Shown here in pieces: positions 1 through 13,760 of a stretch of DNA of 64,000 nt. This DNA comes from the human T2T-CHM13v2.0 reference genome, Homo sapiens. The notes beneath the pieces were generated by a model that did not search any database, was not told where the DNA came from, and saw nothing but the letters and a program-made list of their open reading frames with translations. The stretch lies in assembly GCF_009914755.1 (NCBI RefSeq), contig NC_060934.1. The stretch is one strand, 5' to 3'. How positions within the stretch are numbered: the stretch's first letter is position 1; every line of letters starts with the position of its first letter. The translations under genes and the position numbers were made by a program.

Positions 1-652
1 TCCTCTCCTCTAACCCGACAATAACTGAGCTTTTCTACTGTCTCCATAGTTTTGCCTGTTCTAAAATGTCATATAGTTAGAAACATACAATACATAGCTT
101 TTCCAGATTGATTTCTTTCACTTAAGAATATGCATTTAAGCCAGGCACAGTGGCTCACACCTGTAATCCCAGCACTTCGTGAGGCCAAGGCTAGTGGATC
201 ACCTGAGGTTGGGAGCTCAAGACCAGCCTGACCAACATAGAGAAACCCCATCTCTACTAAAAATACAAAATTAGCTGGGCATGGTGGCACATGTCTGTAA
301 TCCTAGCTACTCAGGAGGCTGAGGCAGGAGAATTGCTCGAACACAGGAAGCAGAGGTTGTGGTGAGCCGAGATCACACCATTGCACTCCAGCCTGGGCAA
401 CAAAAGCGAAACTCTGTCTCAAAAAAAAAAAAAAAAGACAATATGCATTTAAGGTTCCTCTATGTCTTTTGATTGCTTGATAGCTCATTTTTTTAGCCCT
501 GAATAATACTCCATTGTCTGGATGTACCACCATTTATCCATTCACCTGCTGAGGGACATATTGGTTGTTTCCAGGTTCTGGTAATCATGAATAAAGCTGC
601 TATAAACATCTGTGTGCAGGTTTTAGGTGGACGTAAGATTCCAACTCATTTG
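1..652 (-). mobile_element. L1MC-type LINE-1 3' fragment, split by an Alu
   Basis: Typical L1M 3'-end motifs in reverse orientation (gtctccatagttttgcc, gaataaagctgctataaacat). Confidence 0.75.
139..436 (+). mobile_element. AluSp-like SINE
   Basis: Full dimer with ctgaccaacatagagaaacc and poly(A); TSD aatatgcatttaag. Confidence 0.9.
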
Positions 653-1160
653 GTGTTTTTGGTGTTTTGGAGTTTGCCAACTCATTTTTTAACAAAAATA
701 TTTTACTTAGTCAAAAACATTGTAACATAACTCTGTAAGTAACACAGAGTTAAATCAGGACAATTACATGAGGTGATCTTCAACGACTGACATCCTGACT
801 TGCTGTAGCTTAAACCCTGCTGGGCATAGGTCCTTTTTGGATCTTTTTCTTTAACATACTCATTTGCTTCTTCCTTTTCATCATCACCAGCACCTTAGGC
901 TTCTATGCCTCAGTTGTTATGGTGATCTCCAATAGAATCCCCTATGGGGTACCATACTGATCTTGAGCTAGAAAAAGTGCCCCACTTATCATCTGCAGCA
1001 AGGGCAACTTCAAAAGCAGGCCTTAGGGCTCACCCTCAGGAGTCTCAGAAGAGAGAAGTACTCAAAGGAAGAGTCAATGGAAACTGTCCTACTCATAACT
1101 CAAGCATATCCATGTTCCTTGCATTACACCTGCTTCTGAATATTGTTCAGAGGGGCATTC

Positions 1161-1287
1161 TTTTTTTTTCTGAGGGGAGACGGGGTCTTACTACATTGTC
1201 CAGGCTGGACTCCTGGGTTCAAGTGATCCTCCCGCCTCAGCTTCCCAAGTAAATGGGACTACAGGTACACACCACCACATCCAGCTA
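1161..1287 (-). mobile_element. FLAM/FAM-like Alu monomer inserted in the NAP1L1 retrocopy
   Basis: Single Alu arm with T-tract; splits the KKG|KNV-equivalent codons of the retrocopy. Confidence 0.8.
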
Positions 1288-1560
1288 TCCTTTCGTCTAA
1301 TCTACTGGGCCTATAATTTCTCACCTATCAGAGAAAAAGGGATCGGAAGTATCTGGTCTGATCCAAGTTTATATGTCAACACCTCCACTGGGGGTTCAAA
1401 ATAAAGCCCATTGTGATCTCCCAAGCTTGCCAGCATCTAAAAATTTTACTCTGATATCTTTCAGGAGCTTCAGAATAGATTTATTGTGTTTTCAAACCAT
1501 ATTTCTGAGCAAGTTATCATTCTTAAAAACAGTCAAGCAAAAATGAAGCTTTCTTTAGGA

Positions 1561-1654
1561 GCAGGACTTCAACACTGGCTGCACATTAGGACTATCCGGG
1601 AAACATCTGACTTAACTGGTCTGGAGTACAGCCTTGGCTTCAGGAGTTTTAAAA
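1561..1654. mobile_element. Truncated MER5-family (hAT-Charlie) MITE inside the NAP1L1 retrocopy
   Basis: ctggctgcacattag...ctgacttaactggtctggag...ttttaaaa resembles the MER5B consensus; one end is missing. Confidence 0.7.
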
Positions 1655-4362
1655 TGCAAAAATATAAGAGTCTAATATACTTTCTTTCAAGATCATTTAT
1701 TTCTTTATAGACTCTGCCTTCCATTCAGGTACATTCTGACGTAAGGATTTTGGTGGCACTGACTGGGTGTTTAGTGCTGATTGTAGTATCAATATTATCA
1801 GTCACTAACTTCATCAATAACGTTAACACAACCAATCATGAGCACAAAATCTTCAACTGCAAACTAAAAACCAACAAAAACAAACTGGATCTGTTCAAAA
1901 ACATCCTCTGCTTCCTGGTCATCACAACCTGCCTCCTCATTCCCACATTCTGATCTTCATCACTACCACCATCACATCATCACGTTTCCCCTGGTGACTG
2001 GCATATCAGACCCCCACAGAATCATCAGCTTTATCAGTCTCACTGACACTCCCCTCCACAATGCTACCTACCCCCATCAACACTCAACACTTTCCCTCTT
2101 CCTACTTCCTCATCCTTCAGGCCGATCACATTCATGTTCTGGGTGCAATGCAGCTACTTCTTTATCATCAATATTAGACATGATGAAAGAAGTCCCAATA
2201 CCATAACCAATAGTTAGGATGTGGTAAGGGGCAGTGGCAGCAACAGTGAAGGTGAAGAAGATAGCAACAGGCAATGGCTGAGGCAGTGAGGCAGCTACCA
2301 CTGAAGTGAATACAGTGGGCCCTGGTGGTTGAGGCAGCTGTACCCACAAGGAAAACAGGTGATGGAAAGTGATTGAATGAGTGAGCAGCTGGAGCTAAGG
2401 AGAGAACAAAGTTGGTGCAATTATATAAGTCCTAGCCATTGAGGTGGCACTGGTTGAAAAGGCAGCCAAGATGGAGGAAGTGAAAGTTGTAGCTAATGAC
2501 CCTCATAATTTGTATAAGGAGTAAATGAGTTACTATACATATGGCACTTAGAAACAGTACCTGGCACATAACAAATGTCATGTAAATGTTTAATGTTATT
2601 AGAGTTAGACACACAACTAACCATAAATGCAATGTGATAAATTGTGTAAACAGGTGTGTATACCACTTCTCCGGAAGGCAGGGATGATGTCATCTCTGTA
2701 TCCATGTATCTACAATTAACATATACATATGCTCACTCAAAGATGGCTAAATCAAATTCACAACATTGGATCTATGATCTTTTCAGTCTCAATGAACAGT
2801 AATGAATCTTCAGTGACAGATAGGCTCTTGCAAGGTGCTGTATTATGACATCTGCTCATTCCACATCCTATGACTTTTCAGAAATGTTAGAAACAGCCAA
2901 GAGCTAAGCAAAGTATGCAGCAAAGTAGGAAGCCAAGAGCAACAGGCCTAGTCCACGATGAAACATTAGCCCATACACTGCCAGGTATTTTCAAACTATG
3001 CCTTACAGAGAATGACTCACTTAAAAGTCTTGCATATACAGGTCTGCTTTTAGAAATAAGTTCCCACACCTTCAGCCTTTATCACAAACAAGATTTTTCA
3101 CTGATTGTACATGAAAAGCACACCATACTTACCTCACTGGTGGCCAGGCAAATTAAACATGATAATGTGTGTGAAAGCACCATGCACAGCATCTATTACA
3201 CTGCAGGAGCTCAAGAAATATTTGAATCTGGATCTGAAGCACCAGCTGGAATTCCCAAGTCTCGTTATAAGAATGGAAGGGGCCAGTTTACTCCAATTTC
3301 AGCATCTTAACACGGGCACAGATGCTCTTCCAGCATCAATAGCTTTAGAGGTAGTGGTTTGTTTCTCTGTTGCACAGCTGAGGGAACGCTAAGGGCTTTA
3401 CATACATTAGTGGCTAATTCTCACAACAATCCTCCAAGGGAGGTTTCACTATTCTCATTTTACACATAAAGGAACAGGAGTTAAAAGGAGTTAAGTACTT
3501 GCCCAAAGTCAGCTGGTTCATCAGGAACCGGGACTCAAGGTCTATGCAATTCCCAAGTCCATGCTCTATTACACCATATTAGCTGGGGGACATAATAGAG
3601 CCTTAAAGTGTTCTAAGACCAACAGAAGCAAAACAAGTGAGCTCCAGTTTCCAGCTGGGATCTACAACCTCAGGCAACTGAAGCTACCTAACCTCTATTT
3701 CCTCATACATTACAAAAAGAAAAAGAAGTTATCTTCCAACTCTAAGTTTAATGATTCCATCACTTTTTTCCTTTCTTTACTTTCTCTTTTTCCTCCTTCC
3801 TCTGCTACCTCCTAATATGGTCCAAAATGTGTTGGATACATCTATATTTTTTAAAGAAAAAGGATCTAAAATTGCATGCAATTATAGCACTGATCTTCCA
3901 AACAGAGATTAGACGGGCATGGTTTCTTATGTACTTCAAGAGATCAATTTTTCAGTCAGCTAAAAAAAAAAAAAACACATGGTTCTCCTTAGTAGTCGTT
4001 AGAGCAGTACTGGCTTACTGGGATAGAAATACAGTAATACACCACTTTTCAGAATTCAGGTTTCTGGCAACCCATCAGACAATTAACCAGTTCTGGGGAG
4101 AAGGGACAGCCAAGAAATATTTCCCAAAAAGACTTTCCTAAATGCACACTCAATTTATAAAGGACAATAATATATTACAAGCTTTTCTCATTTTGCAATC
4201 TTATGATCAAAATTGAAAGCTAATTTCTAAGATAATGAAGGACTATATTAGAGAAATAGAGAACATTTTCCATAATAACCTATCTCCTTCTCCACCACCA
4301 CCACTCTGACAAAAATGGAAAACGAAAAAAACAAACAACAAAAAAAAAGTTGTAATTCTCTA

Positions 4363-4886: not shown

Positions 4887-4975
4887 CTGTTTCCACACCT
4901 GTGTCTCCTGAGTGTGTCACCTCGTTAGGTTCAATTATTCTTAAATTTCTCAGTTGAAAATCCTGGTGATTCACC
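4887..4975 (-). CDS. XPNPEP1: XPNPEP1 coding exon 2, (R)VNHQDFQLRNLRIIEPNEVTHSGDTGVET(D)
   Basis: Acceptor cttcctgttctttctctccttaag| and donor ACAG|gtaata. The exon is 89 nt, phase 2 in and phase 1 out, and joins exon 1 in frame (AG+G = Arg). The peptide is visible in ORF 4810..5016. Confidence 0.95.
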
Positions 4976-12759: not shown

Positions 12760-13760
12760 GGGGCCCGCGACCGTCTATCCTTGTGGCGGTGACAGATCAG
12801 TAGAGTGAATTGCAGGAGTCAGTATTGTCGAGATTGTAACTTGAGGTTTAGATTCCTGGGTAACAGAAGCGAGGGCAAAGGCTCGCCCACCTCCCCGGAC
12901 ACGAAGAGGGGCCAACTTCCTCCAAGAACGGGGCCTTCCCGCGGGCCAGGAACTGTGACGGCCGCCGCCCCCTCAGGCCGAGTGCAGCAGTTCCGCGGGC
13001 ATACGCGTCCAGGAACCAGACTCGGGCCGCCCCGTGCCCACCGACCCTCCGGAAACGAACCGGATCTCGCCCGGCCTCATGGACCCCTTCCCCCGGCTCC
13101 TGTTCCGGGGCTCCGGCGAGCGCGGCCCTCGCCAGACTGCGGCGGGCCGGGCTCCTCACCCGCGCGTCCCTGCCCGCCGAGGTGCAACACGCGCGGCCGC
13201 GCAGCGAGGGCTGCACGCTGCCCGGACGCCGGCTGCCGGCGGAGTGCCCTCACCTTACTCGCGGTGGCTTTCTGGAGGCTGCCATTCGGCGGTGACGTGC
13301 CCCAGCCCACGTCAGGGGAGCGCAGACCAGCTGATCACCCGCGGAAGGGCCGGCGCGAAGGAGGCGCGAGAGCCGGCGGGCGGGCGGGCTAGCGCCGGGT
13401 CGGCCACGCCCTCGCCCGTGGCGGGCGCTGGCGCCGCGGCCCCGCCCACACGCAGGCCCCGCCCACACTCCCGGACCTGGGGTTCGCGGCCGCAGCGCCT
13501 GCGGCCCAGAGCGGGGCCTGCCCTTCCACACCAGTCCGCATTGCCTCTCCCTGCAGCGAGCGGGGAAAGGACGCAGTGCTGCTGAGTGTCTTCATTTTTG
13601 TTCGTTTTTGTCGTCATTCCTCAAAGAGGAAAAAGGGCTTTGCCGAATAAAGGGGCTACTGTCCCAGGGATTTTCCGGCTTAATTTAGGAGGGCTGAGAA
13701 GAGAGGGACGTGGCCGGCTCCGGAAGAACCTCGACAGGGTCTTCGAGGCTTTGGAACAGG
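12760..13760 (-). promoter_or_regulatory. XPNPEP1: CpG-island promoter and 5' UTR of XPNPEP1
   Basis: Very high GC and CpG density. Contains GC boxes (CCCGCCCAC near 13440 and 13458), KLF-type CCACGCCC (13403), NRF1-like GCGCCTGCGG (~13495) and two TGACGTG sites at 13293-13314. Confidence 0.9.
13254..13285 (-). CDS. XPNPEP1: XPNPEP1 coding exon 1 (N-terminally extended isoform), MAASRKPPRV(R)
   Basis: Minus strand reads ATG GCA GCC TCC AGA AAG CCA CCG CGA GTA AG|GTGAGG: 32 nt ending at a consensus donor, inside a CpG island. Matches the recalled N-terminus MAASRKPPRVRVNHQDFQLRNLRIIEPNEVTHSGDTGVETDGRMPPKVTS of the long XPNPEP1 isoform. Confidence 0.95.

What the first reader, a model, noticed from the sequence alone, without database searches (positions are those of the whole stretch)
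690..2260. Hidden near full-length NAP1L1 retrocopy in XPNPEP1 intron 2, missed by the ORF track
Seen: the minus strand encodes, in colinear order and without introns, decayed blocks spanning NAP1L1 from start to stop. These are MSNIDDKE (ATG 2181, A at -3), YKEINDLERKY, FCLTVFKNDNLLRNMV*KHNKSILKLLKDIRVKFLDAG, FYFEP, EVLT, SDPF, RTVSIDSSFEYF, LAAD and DPKKD...K.Q. 5'-UTR-like (tgctgccactgcc...ttgggacttct..catcATG) and 3'-UTR-like (caggatgt...ttacttacag) sequence flanks them. Diagnostic residues (LTVFKN, DAG, EVLT, LAAD, RSV) favour NAP1L1 over NAP1L4. Established: the NAP1L family has repeatedly produced functional retrogenes (NAP1L2, NAP1L3 and the intronic imprinted NAP1L5 in HERC3). Inference: this is an old copy in the same orientation as its host gene; I do not recall it being annotated.
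Basis: partly seen in the sequence, partly recalled or inferred. Interest (0 to 1): 0.85.

Follow-up and report, generated by a model that had tools for sequence, protein, structure and literature searches.

The report
Ancient dead NAP1L1 retrocopy in XPNPEP1 intron
This is a very old, thoroughly broken, intron-less copy of the histone-chaperone gene NAP1L1 lying inside an intron of XPNPEP1; it is real, but it is an ordinary processed pseudogene with no sign of function.

Summary
The minus strand of window 2200..703 carries a colinear, intron-less copy of the NAP1L1 mRNA. It runs from the last 20 nt of the 5'UTR and the ATG (2181) through the stop into the 3'UTR.

- **Match to parent:** tblastn of a NAP1L1 protein model built from the genome's own exons gives E 3e-12 and 0.002. 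DNA alignments beat shuffles at z 14 to 59.
- **Introns:** 7 of 14 parent exon junctions are crossed inside contiguous alignments.
- **Source gene:** diagnostic sites, 3'UTR homology and an ML tree place it on NAP1L1, not NAP1L4, NAP1L2, NAP1L3 or NAP1L5.
- **State:** it is dead, with 9 in-frame stops and at least 15 frameshifts in the 253 of 391 codons that align. Divergence is equal at codon positions 1, 2 and 3 (K 0.37, 0.36, 0.41).
- **Age:** its own branch is about 0.36 substitutions per site, the oldest of the NAP1L1 copies compared. I infer roughly 100 My or more.
- **Annotation:** the supplied RefSeq table lists nothing here. GENCODE and pseudogene.org could not be checked.

Low interest.

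The parts
2201..2260 (-). Possible remnant of the parent's exon-1 5'UTR (CTG/CCG-rich). Not demonstrated.
   Evidence: The best local match is window 2260-2230 to parent exon 1. It scores 28, and 12 of 200 triplet-block shuffles reach that score. Against mononucleotide shuffles z is 3.1.
2084..2200 (-). Secure 5' end of the copy: the last 20 nt of the 5'UTR (parent exon 2), the ATG at 2181-2179 and codons 1 to about 29. It crosses the exon 2|3 junction without an intron.
   Evidence: mRNA 146-250 aligns to window 2200-2084 with score 58 against shuffles of 22.4 +/- 2.5, z 14. Identity is 72.8%.
1774..2083 (-). Unalignable stretch that is G-rich on the minus strand. It stands where codons about 30-74 should be and is about 175 nt longer than the parent segment.
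   Evidence: No significant alignment (z 0.1). GC skew is -0.54 to -0.65 on the + strand over 1800-2174. No other copy was found in the genome. Only trivial tandem repeats were found.
1677..1773 (-). Codons about 75-106 (the YKEINDLERKY block), with an in-frame TGA at 1727.
   Evidence: tblastn matches residues 78-109 at E 0.002. The DNA block is mRNA 386-482 at 70.8% identity.
1604..1664 (-). Codons about 120-141, with three frameshifts.
   Evidence: mRNA 524-585 aligns at z 5.5 and 71.2% identity.
1425..1542 (-). The best-preserved block, codons 170-209 (LTVFKN...KFLDAG). It has one TGA at 1494 and crosses the exon 7|8 junction.
   Evidence: It matches solved NAP1L1 chains at E 4.8e-9 to 8.3e-9 and Pfam NAP at E 4.3e-6. 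blastn gives 81.4% over 118 nt at E 4e-28.
1310..1405 (-). Codons about 216-254 (FYFEP, EVLT, SDPF), with a TGA at 1323.
   Evidence: It is part of the tblastn hit for residues 169-254. mRNA 857-925 aligns at 73.5%. mRNA 811-845 to window 1405-1368 gives only z 2.7.
1171..1284 (-). Alu-family monomer (7SL-derived, with an A-tail) that inserted into the retrocopy's coding region after retroposition.
   Evidence: Rfam Metazoa_SRP matches 1175-1285 (-) at 55.4 bits, E 1e-12, below the gathering score of 70. All 49 of the 50 listed matches that lie outside the query's own locus fall within query 973-1103, i.e. window 1288-1158. Parent mRNA about 950-962 lies on both sides of the insert, which marks a target-site duplication.
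803..1170 (-). Codons about 262-391 (RTVSIDSSFEYF, LAAD, DPK.KD). It crosses five exon junctions and carries 6 in-frame stops and 6 frameshifts.
   Evidence: It is part of the alignment of mRNA 950-1447 to window 1170-703, z 59. Stops and indels are listed. tblastn matches residues 255-302.
703..802 (-). Proximal 3'UTR of NAP1L1 (caggatgt...ttacttacag).
   Evidence: It lies in the same alignment, and the CDS ends at mRNA 1340. This segment matches the NAP1L1 3' region at z 10.5 and the NAP1L4 3' region at z -0.6.
1..702 (-). Later insertions. An L1 3' fragment runs from window 669 to -338 (outside the window) inside the retrocopy's 3'UTR. A full Alu on the + strand at 141-439 is nested in it. 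The retrocopy's 3'UTR then resumes outside the window at -340..-668.
   Evidence: The L1 target-site duplication is 689-670 against -339..-359, with 19 of 21 columns matching. The Alu duplication is 453-440 against 140-127, 14 of 14. Both Alu arms match Rfam SRP at 140-256 and 274-422 on the + strand. The 3'UTR continuation, mRNA 1467-1854 to -340..-668, gives z 15.8. The L1 identification comes from reading the sequence against recalled L1 3' ends. No repeat library was available.

Best explanation
This is a processed pseudogene. A spliced NAP1L1 mRNA from chromosome 12 was reverse-transcribed and inserted, presumably by L1 machinery, into what is now intron 2 of XPNPEP1, in the same orientation as the host gene. 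It has decayed neutrally ever since. It does nothing as a gene.

**Shown:**
- homology to NAP1L1 mRNA from 20 nt before the ATG to about 515 nt past the stop;
- absence of the parent's introns;
- NAP1L1 rather than paralogue origin;
- many stops and frameshifts;
- equal divergence at the three codon positions;
- three later transposon insertions with their own target-site duplications.

**Inferred:**
- L1-mediated retroposition;
- dead on arrival;
- an age of about 100 My or more, around or before the radiation of placental mammals.
For: **Parent model.** It was built from the genome's own exons. It gives 391 aa, all 14 donor and all 14 acceptor sites are canonical, and the solved-structure fragment sits at residue 169, as in the 391-residue chain.

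**Homology.**
- tblastn gives E 3e-12 (residues 169-302) and 0.002 (residues 78-109), colinear on the minus strand.
- blastn blocks run in order: mRNA 435-482, 672-789, 878-925 and 950-1420.
- Shuffle-controlled alignments give z 14, 59 and 15.8.

**No introns.**
- 7 of 14 parent junctions lie inside contiguous alignments (bounds; blocks).
- Exons that sit more than 1 kb apart in the parent locus L050 lie tens of bases apart here.

**Source gene.**
- At sites where the genes differ, the window matches NAP1L1 at 96 and NAP1L4 at 21 of 135. The counts are 120 against 22 of 170 for NAP1L2, 128 against 28 of 191 for NAP1L3, and 84 against 12 of 115 for NAP1L5.
- The 3'UTR segments match NAP1L1 (z 10.5 and 13.1) but not the NAP1L4 3' region (z -0.6 and 0.8).
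- In the ML tree the window branches at the NAP1L1 node, outside the clade of NAP1L4, NAP1L2, NAP1L3 and NAP1L5 (UFboot 89).

**Dead.**
- There are 9 in-frame stops and 15 frameshifting indels out of 17. 119 of the 253 aligned codons are identical.
- K2P is 0.37, 0.36 and 0.41 at codon positions 1, 2 and 3, and 0.345 in the UTR.

**Old.**
- Identity is 71.3% over 1231 sites, K2P 0.37.
- Its own branch is 0.36, against 0.068 for L021 and 0.26 for L033. The parent's terminal branch is 0.003.
- It predates an Alu-monomer insertion and an L1 insertion.
Against: - No poly(A) tail or flanking target-site duplication of the retrocopy itself was found. Homology simply stops at mRNA 1854, and nothing aligns beyond it (z 1.4 and 0.0).
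- The exon-1 5'UTR is not demonstrable.
- 310 nt (2083-1774) cannot be aligned to the 135 nt of parent they replace.
- The window was aligned to NAP1L1 as reference, which biases the diagnostic counts and the tree toward NAP1L1. The margins are large, however.
- The 8 kb taken as the NAP1L4 3' region may not contain its whole 3'UTR.
- The genome-wide Pfam NAP scan did not list this locus. The single-block Pfam score is below the curated cut-off.
- The age rests on substitution rates that I recalled. No other mammal was examined.
Confidence: 0.94

Rival explanations
1. It was once a functional NAP1L retrogene, expressed from its host intron like NAP1L5 in HERC3. It was kept by selection for a time and then died.
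For: - The ATG and its context are retained.
- One block (1425-1542) is better preserved than the rest, at 81.4% with no indel against 67-73% elsewhere.
- From recalled knowledge, the family has produced functional retrogenes.
Against: - Divergence is the same at codon positions 1, 2 and 3 (0.37, 0.36, 0.41) and in the UTR (0.345). The parent's own branch is 0.003. So nearly all change is on this copy, and it is blind to codon position.
- There are 9 stops and at least 15 frameshifts.
- The better-kept block is one of seven and exceeds the mean by about 2.4 sd (my arithmetic), which is not compelling.
Confidence: 0.03
2. The decayed copy has been co-opted for a non-coding role. It might be a regulatory element of XPNPEP1 or ADD3, a cryptic exon of XPNPEP1, or a decoy carrying remnants of the NAP1L1 3'UTR.
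For: - It has the same orientation as the host, so it is transcribed within the XPNPEP1 pre-mRNA (hub table).
- RefSeq enhancer features lie nearby at 2716-2765 and 3112-3767 (hub table).
Against: - The listed enhancers and all listed XPNPEP1 exons lie outside the copy (hub table).
- Divergence is uniformly about 0.35-0.43 in six of the seven blocks.
- Three transposons have inserted into it, which is typical of unconstrained DNA.
Confidence: 0.02
3. It derives from another NAP family member (NAP1L4, NAP1L2, NAP1L3 or NAP1L5), or the resemblance is due to chance.
For: - DNA identity to NAP1L1 (72%) is no higher than the identity between NAP1L1 and NAP1L4 (70.6%).
- The NAP1L3 locus also shows some homology to the NAP1L1 3'UTR, so UTR homology alone does not exclude it as the source.
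Against: - Diagnostic sites favour NAP1L1 over every paralogue by 4.5- to 7-fold.
- Identity to the paralogues is 47-58% on the same columns.
- The tree places the window at the NAP1L1 node.
- Chance is excluded by E 3e-12 and z up to 59.
Confidence: 0.01

Closest known systems
Other NAP1L1 processed pseudogenes in this genome: L021 (C12:32.60 Mb), L023 (C13:46.98 Mb), L025 (C11:126.10 Mb) and L033 (C24, chrY:2.61 Mb)
   Same: All are intron-less copies of the same mRNA on other chromosomes, with stops inside.
   Different: Those copies are 92-93% (L021, L023, L025) or 80.5% (L033) identical to the parent model. This one is 71% identical. Its tree branch is 0.36 against 0.068 for L021 and 0.26 for L033. 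This copy was too decayed to appear in the genome-wide Pfam scan. It is broken by three later transposon insertions.
Functional NAP1L retrogenes: NAP1L2 (L022), NAP1L3 (L024) and NAP1L5 (L064). Their status as retrogenes, and NAP1L5's intronic imprinted location in HERC3, are recalled and come from no call.
   Same: They are intron-less members of the NAP family. Their DNA identity to NAP1L1 is of the same order: 68.7%, 66.9% and 54.1%.
   Different: NAP1L2 and NAP1L3 keep long open frames of 461 and 509 aa with no stops. This copy has 9 stops and at least 15 frameshifts, and shows no codon-position bias. It branches from NAP1L1 itself, not with those genes.
The parent gene NAP1L1 (C12:76.02-76.06 Mb; 15 exons in my model)
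   Same: It is colinear from mRNA position 146 to 1854, and 47% of the aligned codons are identical.
   Different: The copy has no introns, lies on chromosome 10, is 29% diverged and is non-coding.

Membership tests
Processed pseudogene (retrocopy) | Homology to the mature mRNA of a gene located elsewhere in the genome | tested here: met
   The parent lies on C12 and the copy on C10. tblastn gives E 3e-12, and the DNA alignments give z 14, 59 and 15.8.
Processed pseudogene (retrocopy) | Parent introns precisely absent | tested here: met
   7 of 14 junctions are crossed inside contiguous alignment blocks. For 6 more, the gaps between blocks are far too short for the parent introns. The first junction (144|145) is undetermined.
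Processed pseudogene (retrocopy) | UTR sequence of the mRNA is included | tested here: met
   About 515 nt of 3'UTR is present (mRNA 1341-1854). The 20 nt of exon-2 5'UTR is present. The exon-1 5'UTR is not significant.
Processed pseudogene (retrocopy) | 3' poly(A) tract | tested here: not met
   Homology ends at window -668 with no A-run after it. This is expected at about 36% divergence and does not exclude retroposition.
Processed pseudogene (retrocopy) | Flanking target-site duplication of the copy itself | not tested
   Neither end is defined to the base, and a 10-20 nt duplication would not be recognisable at this divergence. Only the duplications of the three later insertions were recovered.
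Processed pseudogene (retrocopy) | Disabled reading frame | tested here: met
   There are 9 in-frame stops and 15 frameshifting indels in the aligned blocks.
NAP1L1-derived (versus other NAP family members) | Shares NAP1L1-specific states and groups with NAP1L1 | tested here: met
   Diagnostic sites favour NAP1L1 at 96/21, 120/22, 128/28 and 84/12. The tree agrees, as does 3'UTR specificity. The alignment was referenced to NAP1L1, which is a source of bias.
Pfam NAP domain PF00956 (as a protein family) | Score over the curated gathering cut-off | tested here: not met
   The best block scores 26.6 bits against a cut-off of 28.6, E 4.3e-6. The other 6 fragments gave no hit. This is a remnant, not a domain-bearing protein.
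Functional NAP1L retrogene (like NAP1L2, NAP1L3 or NAP1L5) | Open reading frame and purifying selection | tested here: not met
   Stops and frameshifts are listed. K is equal at the three codon positions.

The most novel reading that the evidence does not exclude
This is one of the oldest still-recognisable processed pseudogenes in the human genome, with an own-branch divergence of about 0.36. That would date it before the placental radiation, perhaps to the common ancestor of placentals and marsupials. It would have sat in the sense orientation within the same XPNPEP1 intron ever since. Its better-kept central block or its 3'UTR remnant might have some non-coding use. As a dated insertion it could also serve as a deep phylogenetic marker.
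Probability: 0.04. Interest if true: 0.35.

Novelty: new member of a known kind. Interest (0 to 1): 0.12.

Why it matters
It matters little for biology. It adds one more dead retrocopy to a gene family already known to have several.

It has three modest uses:
- **Annotation.** The supplied RefSeq T2T table has no row for it. Its true span is about 2.9 kb, running past the window start.
- **Detection limits.** At 71% identity with nested transposons it escaped a genome-wide Pfam scan, yet it is plain to tblastn with the parent protein.
- **Phylogeny.** If it is present in distant mammals, it would be a clean presence/absence marker and a neutral-rate calibrator.

Tried and rejected
- **Translating the whole span.** This failed because of stop codons. 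I used stop-free pieces, plus one read-through with TGA=X.
- **Whole-locus DNA search of the genome.** It returned the locus itself and otherwise only Alu-type hits to the monomer at about 1158-1288. It did not find the parent.
- **Genome-wide Pfam NAP scan.** It did not list this locus, but it gave me the parent, the paralogues and younger pseudogenes.
- **First parent model.** Guided by pseudogene L021, it was 63 residues short because L021 lacks two exons. A second attempt had an acceptor one base off. One search fixed both.
- **Window 2084-1773.** Alignment to the parent failed. I found no repeat copies in the genome and no tandem array. The extra 175 nt or so remain unexplained.
- **Beyond mRNA 1854.** Nothing aligned down to window -4000.
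- **Exon-1 5'UTR.** Not significant.
- **Literature.** One search used NAP1L1P1, NAP1L1P2, NAP1L1P3 and 'NAP1L1 pseudogene' and found 7 papers (listing seen). I read passages of PMC10634215 only; it names an unplaced 'NAP1L1 pseudogene'. A second search for XPNPEP1 + NAP1L1 + pseudogene found 2 papers, 1 listed, and its title and abstract start are unrelated. Nothing on this locus turned up. These searches do not cover database tracks.
- **NAP1L5 locus.** A 1-kb fetch gave partial coverage, 453 mapped sites.
Full report
**What was checked.** The finding claims that the minus strand of window 690-2260 holds a decayed, intron-less, near full-length copy of NAP1L1 inside XPNPEP1 intron 2. I read the strand and listed stop-to-stop frames. 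The ATG is at 2181-2179 with A at -3.

**First tests against libraries.**
- The 53-residue read-through of 1554-1396 (one TGA read as X) matches Pfam NAP (PF00956) at E 4.3e-6. The score of 26.6 bits is just under the curated 28.6.
- The other six stop-free fragments gave nothing.
- The same piece matches three solved human NAP1L1 chains at E 4.8e-9 to 8.3e-9. In the 391-residue chain the match is to residues 169-208.

**Building a parent to compare with.**
- No NAP1L1 sequence could be typed, so I took it from the genome the window lies in.
- A Pfam NAP scan of that genome located exon-wise hits on C12:76.02-76.04 Mb (NAP1L1) and C11:3.04-3.06 Mb (NAP1L4). It also found open intron-less genes on chrX (NAP1L2, NAP1L3) and several intron-less copies with stops. 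This chr10 locus was not among the matches.
- I fetched both parent loci.
- I used the young pseudogenes L021, L023 and L025 as guides to exon positions.
- I set each boundary on canonical splice dinucleotides.
- After two corrections this gave a 15-exon mRNA model whose longest ORF is 391 aa. The solved-structure fragment sits at residue 169, as it should. The CDS is mRNA 165-1340.

**Is the match real and colinear?**
- tblastn of the model protein against the entire 64-kb window gave three hits with E below 1:
  - residues 78-109 at window 1763-1668 (E 0.002);
  - residues 169-254 at 1545-1309;
  - residues 255-302 at 1195-1052 (the last two jointly E 3e-12).
- All three are on the minus strand and in order. 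The only hits elsewhere in the window had E 7.6 and 9.1.
- blastn of the mRNA model gave ordered blocks: 435-482, 672-789 (81.4%, E 4e-28), 878-925 and 950-1420.
- Local alignments with shuffled-query controls added two more pieces:
  - the 5' end, mRNA 146-250 to window 2200-2084, z 14;
  - the whole 3' coding part and proximal 3'UTR, mRNA 950-1447 to window 1170-703, z 59.
- Weaker pieces are mRNA 524-585 (z 5.5) and 811-845 (z 2.7).
- Two claims are not upheld as stated:
  - The exon-1 5'UTR match at 2260-2230 is reached by 12 of 200 triplet-block shuffles.
  - Window 2083-1774 does not align to the 135 nt of parent it replaces (z 0.1).
- That unaligned stretch is strongly G-over-C on the minus strand. 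It has no other copy in the genome at the sensitivity and holds no tandem array. Its extra 175 nt or so are unexplained. It may be decayed and expanded acidic-tract coding sequence, but that is a guess.

- At window 703 the alignment to the 3'UTR breaks off. It resumes at -340, outside the window, and runs to -668 (mRNA 1467-1854, z 15.8, on sequence fetched).
- The roughly 1.0 kb between is an L1 3' fragment in the same orientation. Its target-site duplication is 689-670 against -339..-359, with 19 of 21 columns matching.
- A full Alu on the + strand (141-439) is nested in the L1, with a perfect 14-nt duplication.
- Naming the element L1 rests on my reading of the sequence against recalled L1 3' ends, because no repeat library was on hand.
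- A third insertion sits inside the coding part. This is an Alu-family monomer at 1171-1284. Rfam SRP spans its model positions 1-299 within 111 nt, at 55.4 bits and E 1e-12, which is below gathering. It also accounts for all 49 of the 50 listed matches that lie outside the query's own locus.
- Parent mRNA about 950-962 is present on both sides of the monomer, so it arrived after the retrocopy.
- By my arithmetic, removing these insertions leaves about 1.71 kb for 1.71 kb of mRNA.
- Beyond mRNA 1854 nothing aligns, and there is no A-tract.

**No introns.**
- Seven of the 14 parent junctions lie inside contiguous alignment blocks: 181|182, 722|723, 1080|1081, 1100|1101, 1223|1224, 1253|1254 and 1304|1305.
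- Six more fall in gaps of 12-310 nt, where the parent has introns of hundreds to thousands of bases. The first junction is undetermined.
- In locus L050, parent exons more than 1 kb apart match window segments that lie tens of bases apart.

**Which family member?**
- At nucleotide sites where NAP1L1 differs from a paralogue, the window sides with NAP1L1:

| Paralogue | Window matches NAP1L1 | Window matches paralogue | Sites where they differ |
|---|---|---|---|
| NAP1L4 | 96 | 21 | 135 |
| NAP1L2 | 120 | 22 | 170 |
| NAP1L3 | 128 | 28 | 191 |
| NAP1L5 | 84 | 12 | 115 |

- The 3'UTR segments match the NAP1L1 3' region (z 10.5 and 13.1) and not the 8 kb downstream of NAP1L4's last mapped coding exon (z -0.6 and 0.8).
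- An ML tree on 483 shared columns puts the window at the NAP1L1 node. The younger pseudogenes L021 and L033 attach there only through two very short internal branches (0.004 and 0.002, UFboot 43 each). The window lies outside the clade of NAP1L4, NAP1L2, NAP1L3 and NAP1L5 (UFboot 89).
- Caveat: the window was aligned to NAP1L1 as reference, which favours NAP1L1. The margins are large.

**State and age.**
- In the 253 of 391 codons that align fully, 119 are identical, 9 are stops, and 15 of 17 indels shift the frame.
- Overall identity is 71.3% over 1231 sites (K2P 0.37).
- K2P is 0.37, 0.36 and 0.41 at codon positions 1, 2 and 3, and 0.345 in the UTRs.
- The parent's terminal branch is 0.003, so nearly all change lies on the copy and is blind to codon position. 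That is the signature of neutral decay from the start, or close to it.
- Its branch (0.36) exceeds those of L021 (0.068) and the chrY copy L033 (0.26).
- Converting 0.36 to time needs rates that I only recall: about 2.2e-9 per site per year as a mammalian average, and about 0.17 on the human lineage since the human-mouse ancestor. Both point to roughly 100-170 My. This is an inference, and local alignment of decayed DNA tends to understate divergence.

**Context.** By the hub's table, XPNPEP1 runs on the minus strand with exon 1 at 13254-13363 and exon 2 at 4887-4975. The copy therefore lies in intron 2 of NM_020383.4, in the sense orientation. No listed exon or RefSeq functional element overlaps it.

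**Comparison with what is known.** It is a processed pseudogene of NAP1L1, of which this genome holds several younger ones. It is not like NAP1L2, NAP1L3 or NAP1L5 in the respect that matters, an open frame under selection.

**Novelty.**
- The supplied RefSeq table has no entry for it.
- The two literature searches found nothing on it. Of their results I read passages of one paper only.
- GENCODE, RetroGenes and pseudogene.org could not be consulted. A tblastn-based pipeline should see it at E 3e-12.

**Verdict.** Interest 0.12.

Noticed in passing
G000 C23 (chrX) 119249797-119284431: Eight matches to the Pfam NAP domain lie about 4860 bp apart on the same strand. Each has 8-9 stops. This looks like a tandem array whose unit carries a NAP-like remnant.
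   Followed up: no
L021 (G000 C12:32601297-32605109): This young NAP1L1 processed pseudogene (about 92% identity) lacks the 189 nt of parent exons 3 and 4. It came either from a transcript that skipped them or from a later deletion. It also has an Alu in its 3'UTR.
   Followed up: partly
L024 (NAP1L3 locus, G000 C23:92115513-92119658): One blastn match to the NAP1L1 mRNA model reaches position 1787, well into the 3'UTR. This hints that NAP1L3 still carries remnants of the NAP1L1 3'UTR.
   Followed up: no
window 1425-1542 (-): This block is 81.4% identical to the parent with no indel, against 67-73% for the other six blocks. That is about 2.4 sd above the mean and may be chance.
   Followed up: partly
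window 1774-2083 (-): This stretch within the retrocopy is G-rich and C-poor on the minus strand. It is about 175 nt longer than the parent segment it replaces and is not alignable to it. No other copy was found in the genome.
   Followed up: partly
window 1236-1287 (-) and 272-323 (+): Rfam mir-1268 matches at 41.5 and 37.9 bits, far below the gathering score of 83. Both lie inside Alu-family sequence and simply reflect the Alu-like nature of that model.
   Followed up: no
window 641-653 (-): A third partial copy of the L1 target-site motif (ccaaatgagttgg) lies just inside the 5' end of the L1 fragment, about 17 nt (16 intervening bases) after the first duplication copy. Its origin is unclear.
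   Followed up: no
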